A stretch of 55,310 bases of DNA. Origin: Actinomycetes bacterium (GTDB lineage Bacteria > Actinomycetota > Actinomycetes > JACCUZ01). Location of the stretch: contig DASVBJ010000128.1 in assembly GCA_036375895.1 (NCBI GenBank), positions 1 to 55,310 on the forward strand. Direction: 5' to 3'. A model generated the notes under the pieces. That model was given only the letters and a program-made list of their open reading frames with translations, was not told the DNA's origin and searched no databases. Positions 14,795 through 21,872 of the stretch are shown here, one piece after another. The position numbers were made by a program, and so were the translations under genes. Positions within the stretch are counted from its first letter, which is position 1. Each line of letters opens with the position of its first letter.

Positions 14795-14817
14795 CTGTCG
14801 GGGGCGGGGTTTACTCT
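14795..14817 (+). promoter_or_regulatory. candidate damage-inducible RecA-independent (PafBC-type, RecA-NDp-like) promoter
   Basis: cTGTCGggg - 8 nt - TACTCT, compared with the mycobacterial motif tTGTCRgtg-8nt-TAnnnT. The TGTCG core, the exact 8-nt spacing and the TAnnnT -10 all match; 2 flanking positions mismatch. Confidence 0.4.
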
Positions 14818-14825
14818 GGTCTTGT

Positions 14826-14841
14826 TCGAACAGATGTTCGA
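14826..14841 (+). promoter_or_regulatory. LexA operator (actinobacterial SOS box)
   Basis: Perfect palindrome TCGAAC-AGAT-GTTCGA equals the TCGAAC-N4-GTTCGA consensus. It begins 8 nt downstream of the TACTCT -10 element, upstream of the DUF6504/HEPN/dnaE2 operon. Confidence 0.85.
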
Positions 14842-14951
14842 ACAACGCGGAAGGGGTGGGGCTCGCGGCCCGCCGCTTCCGAGGTGGCGGCGTCCCGCCC
14901 GGGAGACGGACCTCGACCCCCGGCCTGTCGGGCGGGATCGCCGGCCACCAC

Positions 14952-14998
14952 AGACAGGGCAGATGGCGACAGATGGCGACAGCGGCGACAGATGGCGC
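14952..14998 (+). repeat. 4-5 tandem 9-10-bp direct repeats (AGATGGCGAC) in the operon leader
   Basis: Units: agacagggc / agatggcgac / agatggcgac / agcggcgac / agatggcgc. They lie between the LexA box and the first start codon at 15036. Confidence 0.7.
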
Positions 14999-19804: not shown

Positions 19805-19871
19805 GCCGTCCGGCCCGATCTTCCCTAGGCTTGGCGCGAGCCCGCCCTCCGCACCCGTCTGGAGCCGCACC

Positions 19872-20618
19872 GTGGACCGCTCCCGCACCAGCCGCTCGCT
19901 GCGCACGGCCGTGGTCGAGGACGCCCTCCAGGGCGTCATCGCCGCGCGGGTCGCGGAGACCGGGCAGGCGCGGCTGCGGGTCCTCGACGTCGGCGGCGGT
20001 ACGGGTGGCCTCGCCGTGCCCCTCGCGCGGGACGGTCACCACGTCACCGTCGTCGACCCCAGCCCGGACGCACTCGCCTCGCTCGAGCGCCGCGCCGGCG
20101 AGGCCGGGGTCGTCGTCCACGGCCTGCAGGGCGACGCCGCCGAGCTGGTCGGGCTGGTCGGCGCCGACGTCGCAGACCTGGTGCTCTGCCACGGTGTCCT
20201 CGAGCACGTCGACGAGCTCGCCCCCGCCGTCACGGCGCTCGTGCAGGTGCTGCGTCCCGGCGGCACGCTCAGCGTCCTGGCCGCCAACCGCAACGCGGTC
20301 GTGCTCGCCCGGGCCATCGCCGGCCACTTCGCCGACGCCCGCCACGCCCTCGACGACCCGGCCGGGCGGTGGGGCGCGGGTGACCCGCTGCCGCGGCGCT
20401 TCACCGAGAGCCAGCTCGTCCACCTCCTCGCCGACGCCGGCCTCGAGGTGCGCGCCGTCCACGGCGTGCGCACCTTCGCCGACCTGGTGCCCGGCGCGCT
20501 CGTCGACCACGAGCCCGGCGCTGCCGACGCGCTGCTCGCCCTCGAGCTGGCGGCGGCGGACCGGCCCGCCTTCCGGGCCGTCGCGACCCGGCTGCACGTC
20601 CTTGCCGGCCGCGGCTGA
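19872..20618 (+). CDS. class I SAM-dependent methyltransferase
   Basis: Motif I is RVLDVGGGTGGLAVPLA, followed by VVDPS, LVLCHGVLEHV and LRPGGTLS. GTG start at 19872, 67 nt after the dnaE2 stop. Confidence 0.8.
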   Translation: MDRSRTSRSLRTAVVEDALQGVIAARVAETGQARLRVLDVGGGTGGLAVPLARDGHHVTVVDPSPDALASLERRAGEAGVVVHGLQGDAAELVGLVGADVADLVLCHGVLEHVDELAPAVTALVQVLRPGGTLSVLAANRNAVVLARAIAGHFADARHALDDPAGRWGAGDPLPRRFTESQLVHLLADAGLEVRAVHGVRTFADLVPGALVDHEPGAADALLALELAAADRPAFRAVATRLHVLAGRG

Positions 20619-20624
20619 GATGAC

Positions 20625-21872
20625 ATGAGCCGCAGCCAGCAGCTGCACCGGCCCGGCCCGCCGGCCGGCCCGCCCGGTGACGACACCGGCTGCACGATCC
20701 TGCACGTCGACATGGACGCCTTCTACGCCTCCGTCGAGCTGCGCAGCCGGCCGGAGCTGCGCGGGACGCCGGTCATCGTCGGCGGCGGCACCCGCGGGGT
20801 GGTGCTGTCGGCCACCTACGAGGCACGCCGTTTCGGGGTCCACTCGGCGATGCCGATGAGCCGGGCCCGGCGGCTGTGCCCCCAGGCCACCGTCGTGTCG
20901 CCCAGCCACGGCGTCTACAGCGAGGTGTCGGCCGGCGTCATGGAGGTGTTCCGGTCGGTCACCCCGCTGGTCGAGCCGCTGTCGCTCGACGAGGCGTTCC
21001 TCGACGTGGCCGGAGCCGTGCGCCGCCTCGGGCGGCCGGCCGCGATCGGCCAGCTGATCCGTGACCGGGTGGCCGACGAGCAGGGCATCACCTGCTCGGT
21101 CGGGGTGGCGAGCACCAAGTTCGTCGCCAAGCTGGCCTCCACCCGCGCCAAGCCCGACGGCATGATCGTCGTCCCGGCCGACGAGGTGGTGGCGTTCCTG
21201 CACCCGCTGCCGGTGGGAGCTCTGTGGGGCGTGGGGGAGAAGACCGAGAAGGAGCTCGTCCGGCTCGGGCTGCACACCGTCGGCGACATCGCCAACACCC
21301 CGCTCGCCACGCTGGTCCGCGCGCTGGGCCAGGCCACCGGCGCTCACCTGCACGCGCTGTCCTGGGGTCGCGACGAGCGCGCCGTCGTCGCACACGAGCC
21401 GGACAGGAGCATCGGCGCCGAGGAGACGTTCGCCCGCGACGTCGACGACGCGGAGGTCGTGCTGCGCGAGCTGTTGCGGCTGTCCGAGCGCACGGCCGGC
21501 CGGCTGCGGAAGGCCGGGCTGGCCGGCCGCACGGTGAGCCTCAAGGTGCGCTTCGCCGACTTCACCACGATCACGCGGTCCCGCACCCTGCGCGAGGCGA
21601 CCGACGTCGGCCAGGAGATCTACGCGACCGCGCGTGGGCTGTTCGAGGCACTCGGGCTCGACCGGGCGCGCATCCGGCTGGTCGGCGTGCGGGTCGAGCA
21701 GCTCGCCGACTCCGACACCGCACCCCGTCAGCTGCTGCTCGGCGAGCGCGCGCGCGGACGGCGGGAGGCCGAGCAGGCAGCCGACCGCGCGGCGCTGCGG
21801 TTCGGGAAGGGGGCCGTGCGCCCGGCCAGCCTCGTACGAGACGACGATCCCGGGCCGAAAGGCCCACCGTGA
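20625..21872 (+). CDS. dinB: DNA polymerase IV (Y-family, DinB)
   Basis: ILHVDMDAFYASVE, SLDEAFLDV (catalytic D/E), CSVGVASTKFVAKLAS and GALWGVGEKT. Start lies 6 nt after the methyltransferase stop. Confidence 0.9.
   Translation: MSRSQQLHRPGPPAGPPGDDTGCTILHVDMDAFYASVELRSRPELRGTPVIVGGGTRGVVLSATYEARRFGVHSAMPMSRARRLCPQATVVSPSHGVYSEVSAGVMEVFRSVTPLVEPLSLDEAFLDVAGAVRRLGRPAAIGQLIRDRVADEQGITCSVGVASTKFVAKLASTRAKPDGMIVVPADEVVAFLHPLPVGALWGVGEKTEKELVRLGLHTVGDIANTPLATLVRALGQATGAHLHALSWGRDERAVVAHEPDRSIGAEETFARDVDDAEVVLRELLRLSERTAGRLRKAGLAGRTVSLKVRFADFTTITRSRTLREATDVGQEIYATARGLFEALGLDRARIRLVGVRVEQLADSDTAPRQLLLGERARGRREAEQAADRAALRFGKGAVRPASLVRDDDPGPKGPP

What the first reader, a model, noticed from the sequence alone, without database searches (positions are those of the whole stretch)
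14795..21872. SOS-box-fronted operon DUF6504-like / HEPN-like / DnaE2-type polymerase / methyltransferase / DinB: a non-canonical damage-inducible mutasome without imuA'/imuB
Seen in sequence: five same-strand genes (15036-15332, 15333-15794, 15806-19804, 19872-20618, 20625-21872) are separated by 0, 11, 67 and 6 nt. They sit behind a perfect palindrome, TCGAACagatGTTCGA (14826-14841). Established knowledge: TCGAAC-N4-GTTCGA is the LexA operator consensus of mycobacteria and related actinobacteria. The characterised actinobacterial inducible-mutagenesis machinery is ImuA'-ImuB-DnaE2. Here the DnaE2-type polymerase is instead preceded by two small uncharacterised proteins: a 98-aa DUF6504-like protein and a 153-aa helical HEPN-like protein. 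It is followed by a SAM methyltransferase and a DinB whose catalytic motifs are intact (DMDAFYASVE, SLDEAFLDV), so that gene is not an ImuB surrogate. I saw no imuA'/imuB-like ORF anywhere in the window. Inference: the two small proteins could be adaptor or regulatory subunits of an alternative translesion module. Alternatively they could be a HEPN-type effector wired to the SOS response. The co-transcribed methyltransferase has no obvious role in either case.
Basis: partly seen in the sequence, partly recalled or inferred. Interest (0 to 1): 0.8.

Follow-up and report, generated by a model that had tools for sequence, protein, structure and literature searches.

The report
Damage-induced DnaE2B mutasome operon, extra parts
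This is a DNA-damage-inducible operon for an error-prone polymerase complex of a type already predicted in 2019-2026 papers, but it also carries two conserved genes and a conserved leader RNA hairpin that I did not find described in those papers, in Rfam 15 or in the searchable literature.

Summary
Five co-oriented genes (15036-21872) sit behind a perfect LexA box (14826-14841). DUF6504 is the standalone ImuB-C domain. The polymerase is a DnaE2B. The DinB is an active PolY with clamp-binding-like and RecA-NT-like motifs. Together they match the published, computationally predicted "DnaE2B-PolY-ImuB-C-RecA" system of Actinobacteria (NAR 2026, PMC12926913), at 40/50/57% identity to its Tessaracoccus exemplar. 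So ImuB is split rather than absent. I found the following nowhere in the papers read, in Rfam 15 or in the library searches. (1) HEPN_SAV_6107 and a CmoM-like methyltransferase are conserved operon members, and the HEPN gene also flanks canonical imuA'-imuB-dnaE2 cassettes. (2) A LexA box with at most one mismatch lies upstream of the HEPN gene in 64 of 79 loci, and the window's promoter also fits the PafBC motif exactly. (3) A 16-bp leader hairpin with an invariant CUCGACCCC loop (14892-14940) covaries at all 16 pairs. About 110 model matches were found (101 unique sequences), all ahead of imuB-C/HEPN wherever the downstream DNA could be read. The HEPN protein lacks the canonical Rx4-6H motif, so a toxin role is unlikely. 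The functions of the HEPN protein, the methyltransferase and the hairpin remain unknown.

The parts
14796..14817 (+). PafBC-type (RecA-NDp) promoter motif TGTCGG-N10-TA-N3-T. The -26 element TGTCGG is at 14796-14801 and the -10 element TACTCT at 14812-14817. A -35-like TTGCGG lies at 14787-14792.
   Evidence: Exact fit to the published consensus tGTCgg(N10)tA(N3)T (PMC8635444). The sequence was read. The same motif sits 30-32 nt before the LexA box in 17 loci (strict form) and about 17 more (loose form). Of 19 strict hits in 1.43 Mb, 17 are at this place.
14826..14841 (.). LexA operator (SOS box) TCGAACagatGTTCGA. It starts 8 nt after the -10 element, so it overlaps the expected transcription start.
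   Evidence: Only perfect match in the window. A perfect box lies upstream of the HEPN gene in 53 of 79 related loci, and a box with at most one mismatch in 64 of 79.
14892..14940 (+). Leader RNA hairpin. The stem has about 16 bp in the model and extends over 14883-14949 in the MFE fold. The invariant loop motif CTCGACCCC is at 14912-14920.
   Evidence: Covariance model R1 scores 37.5 bits (E 3e-4), the only match in the window. All 16 pairs show double compensatory changes, with 92-93% of cells paired against 54-56% in shuffles and 37-50% in slid controls. About 110 matches were found in genomes and metagenomes (101 unique sequences), all ahead of imuB-C/HEPN wherever the downstream DNA could be read. 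No Rfam 15 family matches.
15036..15332 (+). imuB-C: standalone ImuB C-terminal domain protein (Pfam DUF6504), 98 aa.
   Evidence: PF20114 E 4e-21. 40% identity (E 2e-17) to the ImuB-C of Tessaracoccus lapidicaptus, VEP41449. jackhmmer started from the DnaE2X-type ImuB-C ACZ39476 recovers it.
15333..15794 (+). HEPN_SAV_6107 family protein, 153 aa from GTG 15333 or 148 aa from ATG 15348. It lies 0-15 nt after imuB-C.
   Evidence: PF18726 E 2e-33. The AF2 model has pLDDT 83 and is a helical bundle. The best PDB fold matches are HEPN domains 1wol, 2hsb and 3o10. Identity is 50-83% across orders.
15806..19804 (+). dnaE2B: error-prone C-family polymerase, 1332 aa. The palm aspartates are kept, the PHP metal site is degenerate, and a conserved C-terminal tail is present.
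   Evidence: Pfam domains. Scores are below the NCBIfam cut-offs for both DnaE1 (654 against 1002) and DnaE2 (637 against 939). 50% identity over the N-terminal 430 aa to DnaE2B VEP41450, but only 31% to the DnaE2A of L050. PDVDVD at residue 453 and KLDVLG at residue 605. Tail motifs.
19872..20618 (+). Class I SAM-dependent methyltransferase, a distant CmoM relative, 248 aa.
   Evidence: Pfam Methyltransf_11/25/23. NCBIfam CmoM 93.7 bits, far below the 366 cut-off. Full-length match to E. coli CmoM structures 4htf and 8joz, E about 3e-19. Kept between dnaE2B or HEPN and dinB in many loci.
20625..21872 (+). dinB: active Y-family polymerase (PolY-core type) with C-terminal QLLLG (clamp-binding-like) and AADRAALRFGKGAV (RecA-NT-like) motifs.
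   Evidence: NF003015 412 bits, above the cut-off of 367. 57% identity to PolY VEP41451 through to the C-terminus. Both C-terminal motifs are conserved in almost all of 39 loci aligned.

Best explanation
The locus is a DNA-damage-inducible operon for an ImuA'/ImuB-less mutasome of the DnaE2B type.

Shown here: the promoter carries a PafBC activator motif and, 8 nt after its -10 element, a LexA operator.

Inferred from the mycobacterial precedent (not tested here): the operon is silent until RecA-ssDNA removes LexA and ssDNA-activated PafBC adapts RNA polymerase to the promoter.

Inferred from 0-67 nt gaps, the absence of predicted internal terminators and conserved gene order: one mRNA encodes ImuB-C, HEPN_SAV_6107, DnaE2B, a CmoM-like methyltransferase and an active DinB.

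Taken from the published AlphaFold models of orthologues, not tested here: ImuB-C docks on the DnaE2B PHP domain and on the PolY. The PolY brings the beta clamp through QLLLG and cellular RecA through its RecA-NT motif, with RecA standing in for ImuA'. The complex carries out mutagenic lesion bypass.

Found here and not seen in the papers read, in Rfam or in the literature searches: the 5' leader forms a long hairpin with an invariant CUCGACCCC loop. I take it to be a cis-regulatory RNA that adds a post-transcriptional check on the operon.

Inferred, mechanism unknown: HEPN_SAV_6107, a HEPN fold without the canonical RNase motif, and the methyltransferase are conserved accessory components. 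My favoured guess is that the HEPN protein is a non-catalytic adaptor or regulator acting with ImuB-C, or on the leader RNA.
For: The published system and its exemplar sequences are. In Janibacter indicus and Kineococcus radiotolerans the accession numbers of ImuB-C, DnaE2B and PolY each skip one, which fits the same five-gene layout.

The order imuB-C, HEPN, dnaE2B, MTase, dinB is kept in about 25 genomic loci of many orders, in independent gene calls, and in metagenome contigs.

The PafBC motif is. Dual SOS plus PafBC control of the canonical mycobacterial mutasome is experimentally known.

The DnaE2B palm aspartates are.

For the hairpin, all 16 pairs covary, 92-93% of cells are paired, and the matches lie on the sense strand only, one per locus, always between the box and imuB-C/HEPN. 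Of 76 metagenome hits with imuB-C/HEPN downstream, about 70 carry the hairpin. Of 44 hits without them, 6 do, and 4 of those 6 are truncated contigs.
Against: There are no expression or binding data, so induction, co-transcription and complex formation are all inferred. The system itself rests on published AlphaFold models and gene linkage, not on experiments.

Whether this genome lacks imuA'/imuB elsewhere cannot be checked from one window.

My own profile comparison of DUF6504 with the ImuB C-termini of the loci was inconclusive. The direct link to ImuB is borderline here (E 0.045-0.06) and otherwise rests on the literature.

In the Tessaracoccus exemplar the three genes have consecutive accession numbers. 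HEPN and the methyltransferase are therefore not obligatory between them.

The HEPN gene also occurs alone, or only with the methyltransferase (Streptomycetaceae, Streptosporangiaceae), so its role may not be mutasome-specific.

The alignments used for the hairpin pair counts were chosen for, or fitted to, the structure. This inflates the percentage paired, though not the diversity of stem sequences.
Confidence: 0.8

Rival explanations
1. HEPN_SAV_6107 and the methyltransferase are SOS genes with a function of their own, for example in RNA or tRNA metabolism during damage. They are only positional passengers in the mutasome operon, not mutasome components.
For: The HEPN gene occurs alone behind a (degenerate) box, or only with the methyltransferase, in several families. 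In Propionibacteriaceae the HEPN gene and dinB each have their own LexA box. The whole region lies in a conserved syntenic stretch upstream of the dcw cluster. The closest solved relative of the methyltransferase is the tRNA enzyme CmoM. HEPN is an RNA-associated fold. The Tessaracoccus exemplar has no gene between ImuB-C, DnaE2B and PolY.
Against: The HEPN gene is 0-15 nt from imuB-C in the window and directly follows it in 41 of the 80 genome-scan loci. It is found next to translesion genes in at least five different arrangements, including both sides of canonical imuA'-imuB-dnaE2 cassettes. That is hard to explain by inherited synteny alone. The methyltransferase and dinB are 6-15 nt apart in many loci.
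Confidence: 0.3
2. The HEPN protein is an RNase or toxin-type effector induced by SOS.
For: The fold is HEPN. Invariant R47, H52, K102, R103, R117, D120 and D121 could form a non-canonical site, as proposed for AF0298-like HEPN proteins, which have an alternative His. 2hsb (AF0298) is the second-best fold match.
Against: The canonical Rx4-6H motif at the end of helix 3 is absent: the sequence is KRAAAEAGL with no His. The family is listed as lacking the motif in PMC3710099. No MNT or other antitoxin-like gene is adjacent. Sequence conservation is very high (50-83% across orders), unlike fast-evolving toxins.
Confidence: 0.07
3. The leader hairpin is only a structural element, such as a U-less intrinsic terminator or attenuator, or an mRNA-stabilising 5' stem-loop. 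No specific trans-acting partner exists.
For: It is a long GC-rich stem placed early in the leader. Actinobacterial terminators often lack U tracts (my own knowledge).
Against: A purely structural element does not need a loop that stays CUCGACCCC, exactly or with one change, in 101 unique examples while the stem sequence turns over completely. No U tract follows it even in the 58-70% GC loci.
Confidence: 0.2
4. The polymerase is the replicative DnaE1, and the cluster is a housekeeping replication locus.
For: The best NCBIfam hit by a small margin is the DnaE1 model PRK05673.
Against: The score is far below that model's cut-off (654 against 1002). The protein is equally similar to the DnaE2 model. 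It is 50% identical to a published DnaE2B in the most variable N-terminal region. The PHP motifs read HLHVASGYSLRHG and TDRDG rather than the metal-binding forms (judged from my own knowledge of PHP motifs). LexA and PafBC motifs lie upstream. The gene is missing from many otherwise syntenic loci.
Confidence: 0.02

Closest known systems
[quoted passage not shown]
   Same: The same three proteins in the same relative order, with 40%, 50% and 57% identity to the Tessaracoccus lapidicaptus exemplar. The PolY is active and carries a RecA-NT motif. No imuA' or imuB lies nearby. The Janibacter and Kineococcus exemplars show one-gene gaps in accession numbering, which fits the same five-gene layout.
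   Different: The paper does not mention the HEPN_SAV_6107 gene, the methyltransferase, the LexA/PafBC promoter or the leader hairpin (0 text hits for HEPN or methyltransferase). RecA participation cannot be assessed from this window.
Canonical mycobacterial ImuA'-ImuB-DnaE2 mutasome
   Same: It is damage-inducible. Dual LexA plus PafBC control is known for imuA'/imuB. An ImuB-C module contacts the DnaE2 PHP domain, and a Y-family scaffold carries clamp and RecA-NT motifs.
   Different: There is no ImuA'. The Y-family member is catalytically intact and separate from ImuB-C. The polymerase is DnaE2B (31% identity to DnaE2A) and ends in PRKLWHSSPGSAG instead of SRDFR.
lexA-imuB-C-polY operon of Geobacter sulfurreducens and other standalone ImuB-C contexts (PMC6511836; PMC3765255)
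   Same: A standalone ImuB-C is co-transcribed with an active PolY under SOS control.
   Different: Those operons lack DnaE2, the HEPN gene and the methyltransferase, and they often encode lexA itself.
MNT-HEPN toxin-antitoxin pairs and HEPN RNases (PMC3710099)
   Same: A four-helix HEPN fold. The family is placed in the HEPN-M group.
   Different: No Rx4-6H motif, no nucleotidyltransferase partner, strong sequence conservation, and an SOS/translesion gene context.
6C RNA of Actinobacteria (C-rich loops; linked to the SOS response in Corynebacterium, from my own knowledge)
   Same: A stable hairpin presenting a C-rich loop in an actinobacterial DNA-damage context.
   Different: A single hairpin in a 5' leader, a different loop sequence, and no match to any Rfam model including 6C at E <= 1. 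This is a resemblance only, not membership.

Membership tests
DnaE2B-PolY-ImuB-C-RecA system (PMC12926913) | A DnaE2 polymerase of group B (not DnaE1, not ImuA/ImuB-associated DnaE2A) | tested here: met
   50% identity over 430 N-terminal residues to DnaE2B VEP41450 and 31% to DnaE2A of L050. Below the DnaE1 and DnaE2 NCBIfam cut-offs. No tree was built.
DnaE2B-PolY-ImuB-C-RecA system (PMC12926913) | Standalone ImuB-C family protein encoded alongside | tested here: met
   40% identity, E 2e-17 to ImuB-C VEP41449. Recovered by jackhmmer from ImuB-C ACZ39476. The first-pass phmmer run of ACZ39476 lists a DUF6504 ORF (E 8e-4) and then ImuB ORFs (E 0.045-0.06).
DnaE2B-PolY-ImuB-C-RecA system (PMC12926913) | Apparently active PolY carrying a RecA-NT motif | tested here: met
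   Catalytic DMDAFYASVE and SLDEAF motifs. 57% identity to PolY VEP41451 through the C-terminus. DRAxxRFGxGAV is conserved in almost all of 39 loci aligned.
DnaE2B-PolY-ImuB-C-RecA system (PMC12926913) | Genome lacks imuA and imuB | not testable with these tools
   None is present in the 55 kb window. The rest of the genome is not available.
DnaE2B-PolY-ImuB-C-RecA system (PMC12926913) | RecA as a subunit; physical complex | not testable with these tools
   This rests on the authors' AlphaFold models. No multimer modelling is available here.
Homology of DUF6504 to the C-terminal domain of full-length ImuB | Profile-level similarity to ImuB C-termini | tested here: inconclusive
   hhalign against 6-8 sequences gave probability below 1% with a thin profile. 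Only borderline phmmer links were seen. The shared pattern W-x5-WW ... R-x-x-aromatic ... G-x-W ... D at the C-terminus is visible by eye. The literature reports E 1e-4 to 1e-5.
Canonical ImuA'-ImuB-DnaE2 mutasome | ImuA' (inactive RecA-like) gene | tested here: not met
   tblastn with L050 ImuA' finds nothing in the window.
Canonical ImuA'-ImuB-DnaE2 mutasome | Catalytically dead Y-family ImuB fused to ImuB-C | tested here: not met
   The only Y-family gene has intact catalytic motifs and passes the Pol IV cut-off. ImuB-C is a separate 98-aa protein.
Actinobacterial LexA (SOS) regulon | Operator TCGAAC-N4-GTTCGA in the promoter region, conserved in orthologous loci | tested here: met
   Perfect box at 14826-14841. 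53 of 79 loci have a perfect box and 64 of 79 a box with at most one mismatch, against a background of 0.01 per kb.
Actinobacterial LexA (SOS) regulon | LexA binding and RecA-dependent induction | not testable with these tools
   Needs EMSA or ChIP and expression data.
PafBC regulon (RecA-NDp promoters) | Motif tGTCgg(N10)tA(N3)T serving as -26 and -10 elements | tested here: met
   Window 14796-14817 fits exactly. The motif is conserved at a fixed offset from the LexA box in 17 loci (strict form) and about 17 more (loose form). PafBC dependence was not tested.
HEPN superfamily RNases / MNT-HEPN toxins | HEPN four-helix fold | tested here: met
   PF18726 E 2e-33. AF2 model with pLDDT 83. The top Foldseek hits are HEPN domains, TM 0.52-0.68, but E is only 0.16-0.26.
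HEPN superfamily RNases / MNT-HEPN toxins | Rx4-6H catalytic motif at the end of helix 3 | tested here: not met
   The region reads K102-R103-AAA-E107-AGL with no His in 23 aligned members. The family is listed as lacking the motif.
HEPN superfamily RNases / MNT-HEPN toxins | Adjacent minimal nucleotidyltransferase or antitoxin gene | tested here: not met
   The neighbours are imuB-C, dnaE2B, the methyltransferase, dinB or imuA'.
CmoM (tRNA cmo5U methyltransferase) | Score above the NCBIfam equivalog cut-off | tested here: not met
   93.7 bits against 366. It is a full-length but distant match to 4htf and 8joz. The substrate is unknown.
Any Rfam 15 RNA family (for the leader hairpin) | cmscan match | tested here: not met
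   No match at E <= 1 in 14000-22500 apart from a spurious miRNA hit inside dnaE2B.

The most novel reading that the evidence does not exclude
The conserved core of these loci is not the polymerase set. It is a regulatory cassette: a PafBC/LexA promoter, a leader hairpin with the invariant loop CUCGACCCC, and HEPN_SAV_6107. On this reading the hairpin is a previously undescribed cis-regulatory RNA. The HEPN protein, with the CmoM-like methyltransferase, is an unrecognised regulatory or structural component shared by all actinobacterial mutasome types: DnaE2B, DinB-only and canonical ImuA'-ImuB-DnaE2. One possible mode of action is binding of the hairpin loop, giving post-transcriptional feedback on mutagenic polymerase expression.
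Probability: 0.35. Interest if true: 0.75.

Novelty: new member of a known kind. Interest (0 to 1): 0.55.

Why it matters
Damage-induced mutasomes drive stress-induced mutagenesis and chromosomal drug resistance in Actinobacteria, including mycobacteria. The ImuA'/ImuB-less DnaE2B systems have so far been described only from gene linkage and AlphaFold models of three proteins plus RecA. This analysis shows that the natural unit is larger in most lineages. It has dual LexA/PafBC control like the mycobacterial mutasome. It carries a strongly covarying leader RNA with an invariant loop. It also includes two conserved genes that were left out of the published models. If the HEPN protein, the methyltransferase or the hairpin modulate assembly or expression, reconstitution and modelling of these polymerases without them would be incomplete. 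The hairpin would also be a new, easily testable regulatory RNA tied to mutagenesis.

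Tried and rejected
1. An exact-sequence look-up of the window's HEPN protein found no source contig.
2. A sequence search of the HEPN profile against the PDB gave only noise.
3. Pfam on the canonical ImuB of L050 did not hit DUF6504. hhalign of DUF6504 against the ImuB C-termini was inconclusive because the template profile was thin. I therefore relied on identity to published ImuB-C proteins and on jackhmmer/phmmer runs.
4. The ORF between the box and the HEPN gene in L050 looks non-coding and has no Pfam hit.
5. The sigma-70 consensus scan found no promoter. 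The promoter is of the PafBC type.
6. A MAFFT alignment of 73-nt hairpin regions gave no RNAalifold structure because the arms were misaligned. I replaced it with a loop-anchored ungapped alignment and a covariance model.
7. Pseudoknot idea: a complement of the loop (GGGGTCGAG, at most one mismatch) lies within 150 nt downstream in 25 of 101 hairpins, against 10 upstream and 9 in shuffles. It is not general, so I rejected it as the common mechanism.
8. The genes that separate the HEPN gene from the methyltransferase or dinB in some loci are, by inspection of their translations, a ParA-like ATPase on the other strand and an amino-acid permease. I did not run a family search on them. They look like unrelated insertions.
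9. A literature search for the loop sequence returned only primers.
10. I considered modelling an ImuB-C/HEPN complex. The structure tool takes single chains of window sequences only and returns no interface scores, so I did not attempt it.

Full report
**1. Observation**

Profile searches give these assignments:
- 15036-15332: DUF6504 (PF20114, E 4e-21).
- 15333-15794: HEPN_SAV_6107 (PF18726, E 2e-33).
- 15806-19804: a complete C-family polymerase with PHP, pol3_alpha, finger, HHH_6 and OB domains.
- 19872-20618: a class I SAM methyltransferase.
- 20625-21872: DNA polymerase IV, above the curated cut-off (412 against 367 bits), with both catalytic motifs.

TCGAACagatGTTCGA at 14826-14841 is the only perfect match to the operator consensus in the window. 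tblastn with the ImuA', ImuB and DnaE2 proteins of a related locus finds no imuA' or imuB in the 55 kb. The upstream gene (14251-14742, minus strand) is a divergent YbaK-type tRNA-editing gene. Downstream lie a DUF3040 gene, a transglutaminase gene and the dcw cell-division cluster.

**2. What the proteins are**

The polymerase scores below the NCBIfam cut-offs for both DnaE1 (654 against 1002) and DnaE2 (637 against 939). A 2026 survey of bacterial polymerases (PMC12926913) splits DnaE2 into groups A, B and X. [quoted passage not shown] Its supplementary table gives the exemplar sequences. Compared with the Tessaracoccus lapidicaptus exemplar:
- The window's DUF6504 protein is 40% identical (E 2e-17) to the ImuB-C protein.
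- The polymerase is 50% identical over its first 430 residues to the DnaE2B. It is only 31% identical to the DnaE2A that follows imuA'-imuB in locus L050.
- The DinB is 57% identical to the PolY, right through the C-terminus.

A jackhmmer search started from a DnaE2X-type ImuB-C of the same paper pulls in the window protein and all DUF6504 ORFs of the related loci. My own profile-profile test against ImuB C-termini was inconclusive. The link to ImuB itself therefore rests mainly on the literature.

The polymerase keeps the palm aspartates (PDVDVD at residue 453, KLDVLG at 605). Its PHP motifs read HLHVASGYSLRHG and TDRDG. From my knowledge of PHP sites these lack two metal ligands, as is usual for DnaE2.

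The DinB C-terminus carries QLLLG (like the E. coli Pol IV clamp motif QLVLGL, from my own knowledge) followed by AADRAALRFGKGAV, the RecA-NT-like motif. Both are conserved in almost all of 39 loci aligned.

The locus is therefore a member of a known, computationally predicted system. ImuB is split into an active PolY plus ImuB-C, not absent.

**3. Conservation of the layout**

A scan of one genome per species with a HEPN profile returned 80 loci from many actinobacterial orders. The order imuB-C, HEPN, dnaE2B, methyltransferase, dinB recurs in about 25 of them. It also recurs in independent gene calls with precomputed Pfam hits and in metagenome contigs.

Other arrangements keep the HEPN gene:
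- imuB-C, HEPN, MTase, dinB without the polymerase.
- HEPN, MTase, dinB.
- HEPN, dinB (Propionibacteriaceae).
- HEPN, MTase (Kitasatospora, Streptacidiphilus).
- HEPN alone.
- HEPN immediately upstream of canonical imuA'-imuB-dnaE2 (Dactylosporangium, Plantactinospora).
- HEPN immediately downstream of such a cassette (Acidothermaceae).

In the published exemplars from Janibacter indicus and Kineococcus radiotolerans, the accession numbers of ImuB-C, DnaE2B and PolY each skip one. That is what the five-gene layout predicts. The paper, its supplements and the 2019 and 2013 precursor papers never mention a HEPN protein or a methyltransferase. The only paper in the library that names SAV_6107 lists the family as actinobacterial, without the Rx4-6H motif and without gene context.

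**4. Regulation**

A perfect LexA box lies within 1 kb upstream of the HEPN gene in 53 of 79 usable loci. A box with at most one mismatch lies there in 64. Elsewhere in these loci there are 13 perfect boxes in 1.3 Mb. Twelve of them precede dinB or imuA', and the other (L019) lies 10 kb downstream at a gene I did not examine.

Aligning the promoters showed a second conserved block. Window 14796-14817, TGTCGGGGGCGGGGTTTACTCT, fits the ChIP-derived PafBC motif tGTCgg(N10)tA(N3)T exactly. The LexA box starts 8 nt after its -10 element. The strict form of this motif occurs at the same offset in 17 loci and a looser form in about 17 more. Of 19 strict occurrences in 1.43 Mb, 17 are at this position. 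In mycobacteria the canonical mutasome genes are co-regulated by SOS and PafBC. The same logic appears to apply here. This is inference from motifs only.

**5. A conserved leader hairpin**

Between the box and the first gene there is an invariant CTCGACCCC (window 14912-14920) flanked by arms that differ completely between loci but stay complementary.

On a loop-anchored, ungapped alignment of 17 sequences, a 16-bp helix shows the following:
- 91.9% of cells are paired, against 54% in shuffles and 37-50% when the partner is slid by 1-3 columns.
- All 16 pairs show changes on both sides.

A covariance model built from this alignment was searched over the window and 82 loci (1.47 Mb, both strands). 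It gave 40 matches at E below 0.08, 24 of them not in the seed. All are on the sense strand, one per locus, and all lie between the box and imuB-C/HEPN. They include Propionibacteriaceae loci that have no imuB-C. The window has a single match, 14892-14940, at 37.5 bits. The 40-sequence alignment is 93.4% paired against 56% in shuffles. That alignment is fitted to the model, so the percentage paired is optimistic. By my tally of the per-pair counts, about 50 of 595 cells are G-U pairs. Together with the much weaker antisense scores, this points to a sense-strand RNA.

A metagenome scan for box, N45-75, loop motif gave 120 stretches:
- 76 have imuB-C and/or HEPN directly downstream, and about 70 of these have a model match at that place.
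- Of the 44 without those genes, only 6 have a match, and 4 of those 6 are contigs that end right after the motif.

The hairpin is therefore specific to this leader. It is not a dispersed repeat and not a terminator of the divergent upstream gene. No Rfam 15 family matches, and a literature search for the loop sequence finds nothing relevant. In the window the leader folds with the hairpin extended over 14883-14949 (z = -2.4). No U tract follows it, even in the lower-GC loci.

A downstream complement of the loop is present in only 25 of 101 cases, so a pseudoknot is not the general solution. The loop contains CCUC and CCCC, which could pair with G-rich ribosome-binding sites. This was not tested.

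**6. The HEPN protein and the methyltransferase**

The HEPN family is strikingly conserved, at 50-83% identity across orders. The AF2 model (pLDDT 83) is a helical bundle. Its best PDB matches are HEPN domains (1wol, 2hsb, 3o10; TM 0.52-0.68, weak E-values). The catalytic Rx4-6H motif normally sits at the end of helix 3. Here that region reads KRAAAEAGL. The Arg is kept and the His is missing.

Invariant R47 and H52 in helix 2 leave open a non-canonical site of the kind proposed for AF0298-like proteins. The gene context, the lack of an MNT partner and the slow evolution argue against a toxin.

The methyltransferase has an intact SAM motif (VLDVGGGTG). It is a distant full-length relative of E. 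coli CmoM (E 3e-19 to 4htf and 8joz) but scores far below the equivalog cut-off. Its substrate is unknown. It is usually 6-15 nt upstream of dinB.

**7. How it most likely works**

Shown here: gene identities, order, spacing, conserved promoter motifs and the covarying hairpin.

Inferred from established work on LexA, PafBC and the mycobacterial mutasome, and from the published AlphaFold models:
- Damage relieves LexA repression and activates PafBC.
- One transcript is made.
- ImuB-C bridges the DnaE2B PHP domain to the PolY.
- The PolY recruits the clamp and RecA.
- The complex performs mutagenic bypass.

Inferred by me: the hairpin is a cis-regulatory RNA read by an unknown factor, and the HEPN protein and the methyltransferase are accessory factors. 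The main rival for this last point is that they are independent SOS genes that merely share the transcript.

**8. Verdict**

- The window is a new member of that kind.
- The added value lies in three features of the kind that I did not find in the papers read, in Rfam 15 or in the literature searches: the HEPN and methyltransferase genes, dual PafBC/LexA promoter architecture, and a new structured leader RNA.

Noticed in passing
window 14892-14940 (loop 14912-14920); also L001-L082 and L083-L202 at the coordinates listed: A strongly covarying 16-bp hairpin with an invariant CUCGACCCC loop lies in the 5' leader of imuB-C/HEPN operons. It is absent from Rfam 15. About 110 model matches were found (101 unique sequences).
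   Followed up: yes
window 14796-14817: An exact match to the PafBC (RecA-NDp) promoter motif tGTCgg(N10)tA(N3)T lies directly upstream of the LexA box. It is conserved at a fixed offset in many related loci.
   Followed up: yes
window 14960-14997: A 10-nt tandem repeat, CAGATGGCGA x 3.9, lies between the hairpin and the imuB-C start codon. The L081 leader has a similar GACAGAC-type repeat at the same place.
   Followed up: partly
window 19654-19804 (about aa 1283-1332 of the polymerase); same tail in L001, L005, L009, L013-L017, L023, L026, L038, L054, L056, L070: DnaE2B proteins share a disordered C-terminal tail with two conserved short motifs, RRVLVHxSGFxxSPYADhKPxG and a terminal PRKLWHxSPGSxG. 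The DnaE2A proteins of L050, L058 and others end in SRDFR instead. These could be partner-binding motifs.
   Followed up: partly
L050, L051, L061, L076 (about 9940-17800); L058, L068, L079 (about 4000-11200): The HEPN_SAV_6107 gene, with its LexA box and a variant hairpin, sits directly upstream (Micromonosporaceae) or directly downstream (Acidothermaceae) of canonical imuA'-imuB-dnaE2 cassettes.
   Followed up: partly
L024, L030, L031, L032, L034, L046, L069 (about 410-450 nt after the HEPN start): In Propionibacteriaceae a second perfect LexA box lies between the HEPN gene and dinB, so each gene has its own operator.
   Followed up: no
L037 10404-11378, L043 10419-11255, L067 10613-11506 (minus strand): In Pseudonocardia loci an ORF whose translation looks like a ParA/MinD-type ATPase (no family search run) lies on the opposite strand between the HEPN gene and the methyltransferase.
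   Followed up: no
window 31578-50511 and 51264-54533: The window also holds the dcw cell-division cluster (mraZ, rsmH, a PBP gene, mur genes, ftsZ at 45730-47235, sepF, a divIVA-like gene) and, on the minus strand, a 1089-aa ORF that looks like ileS. These names are my reading of ORF sizes, order and terminal sequences; no family search was run on them. The mutasome operon lies in the conserved syntenic region upstream of this cluster, where SAV_6107 would also map in Streptomyces by my estimate.
   Followed up: no
window 15471-15488 (HEPN residues 47-52) and 15636-15653 (residues 102-107): Invariant R47-YAAA-H52 in helix 2 formally spells Rx4H but is not at the canonical HEPN position. The canonical position keeps K102-R103 but has no His.
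   Followed up: partly
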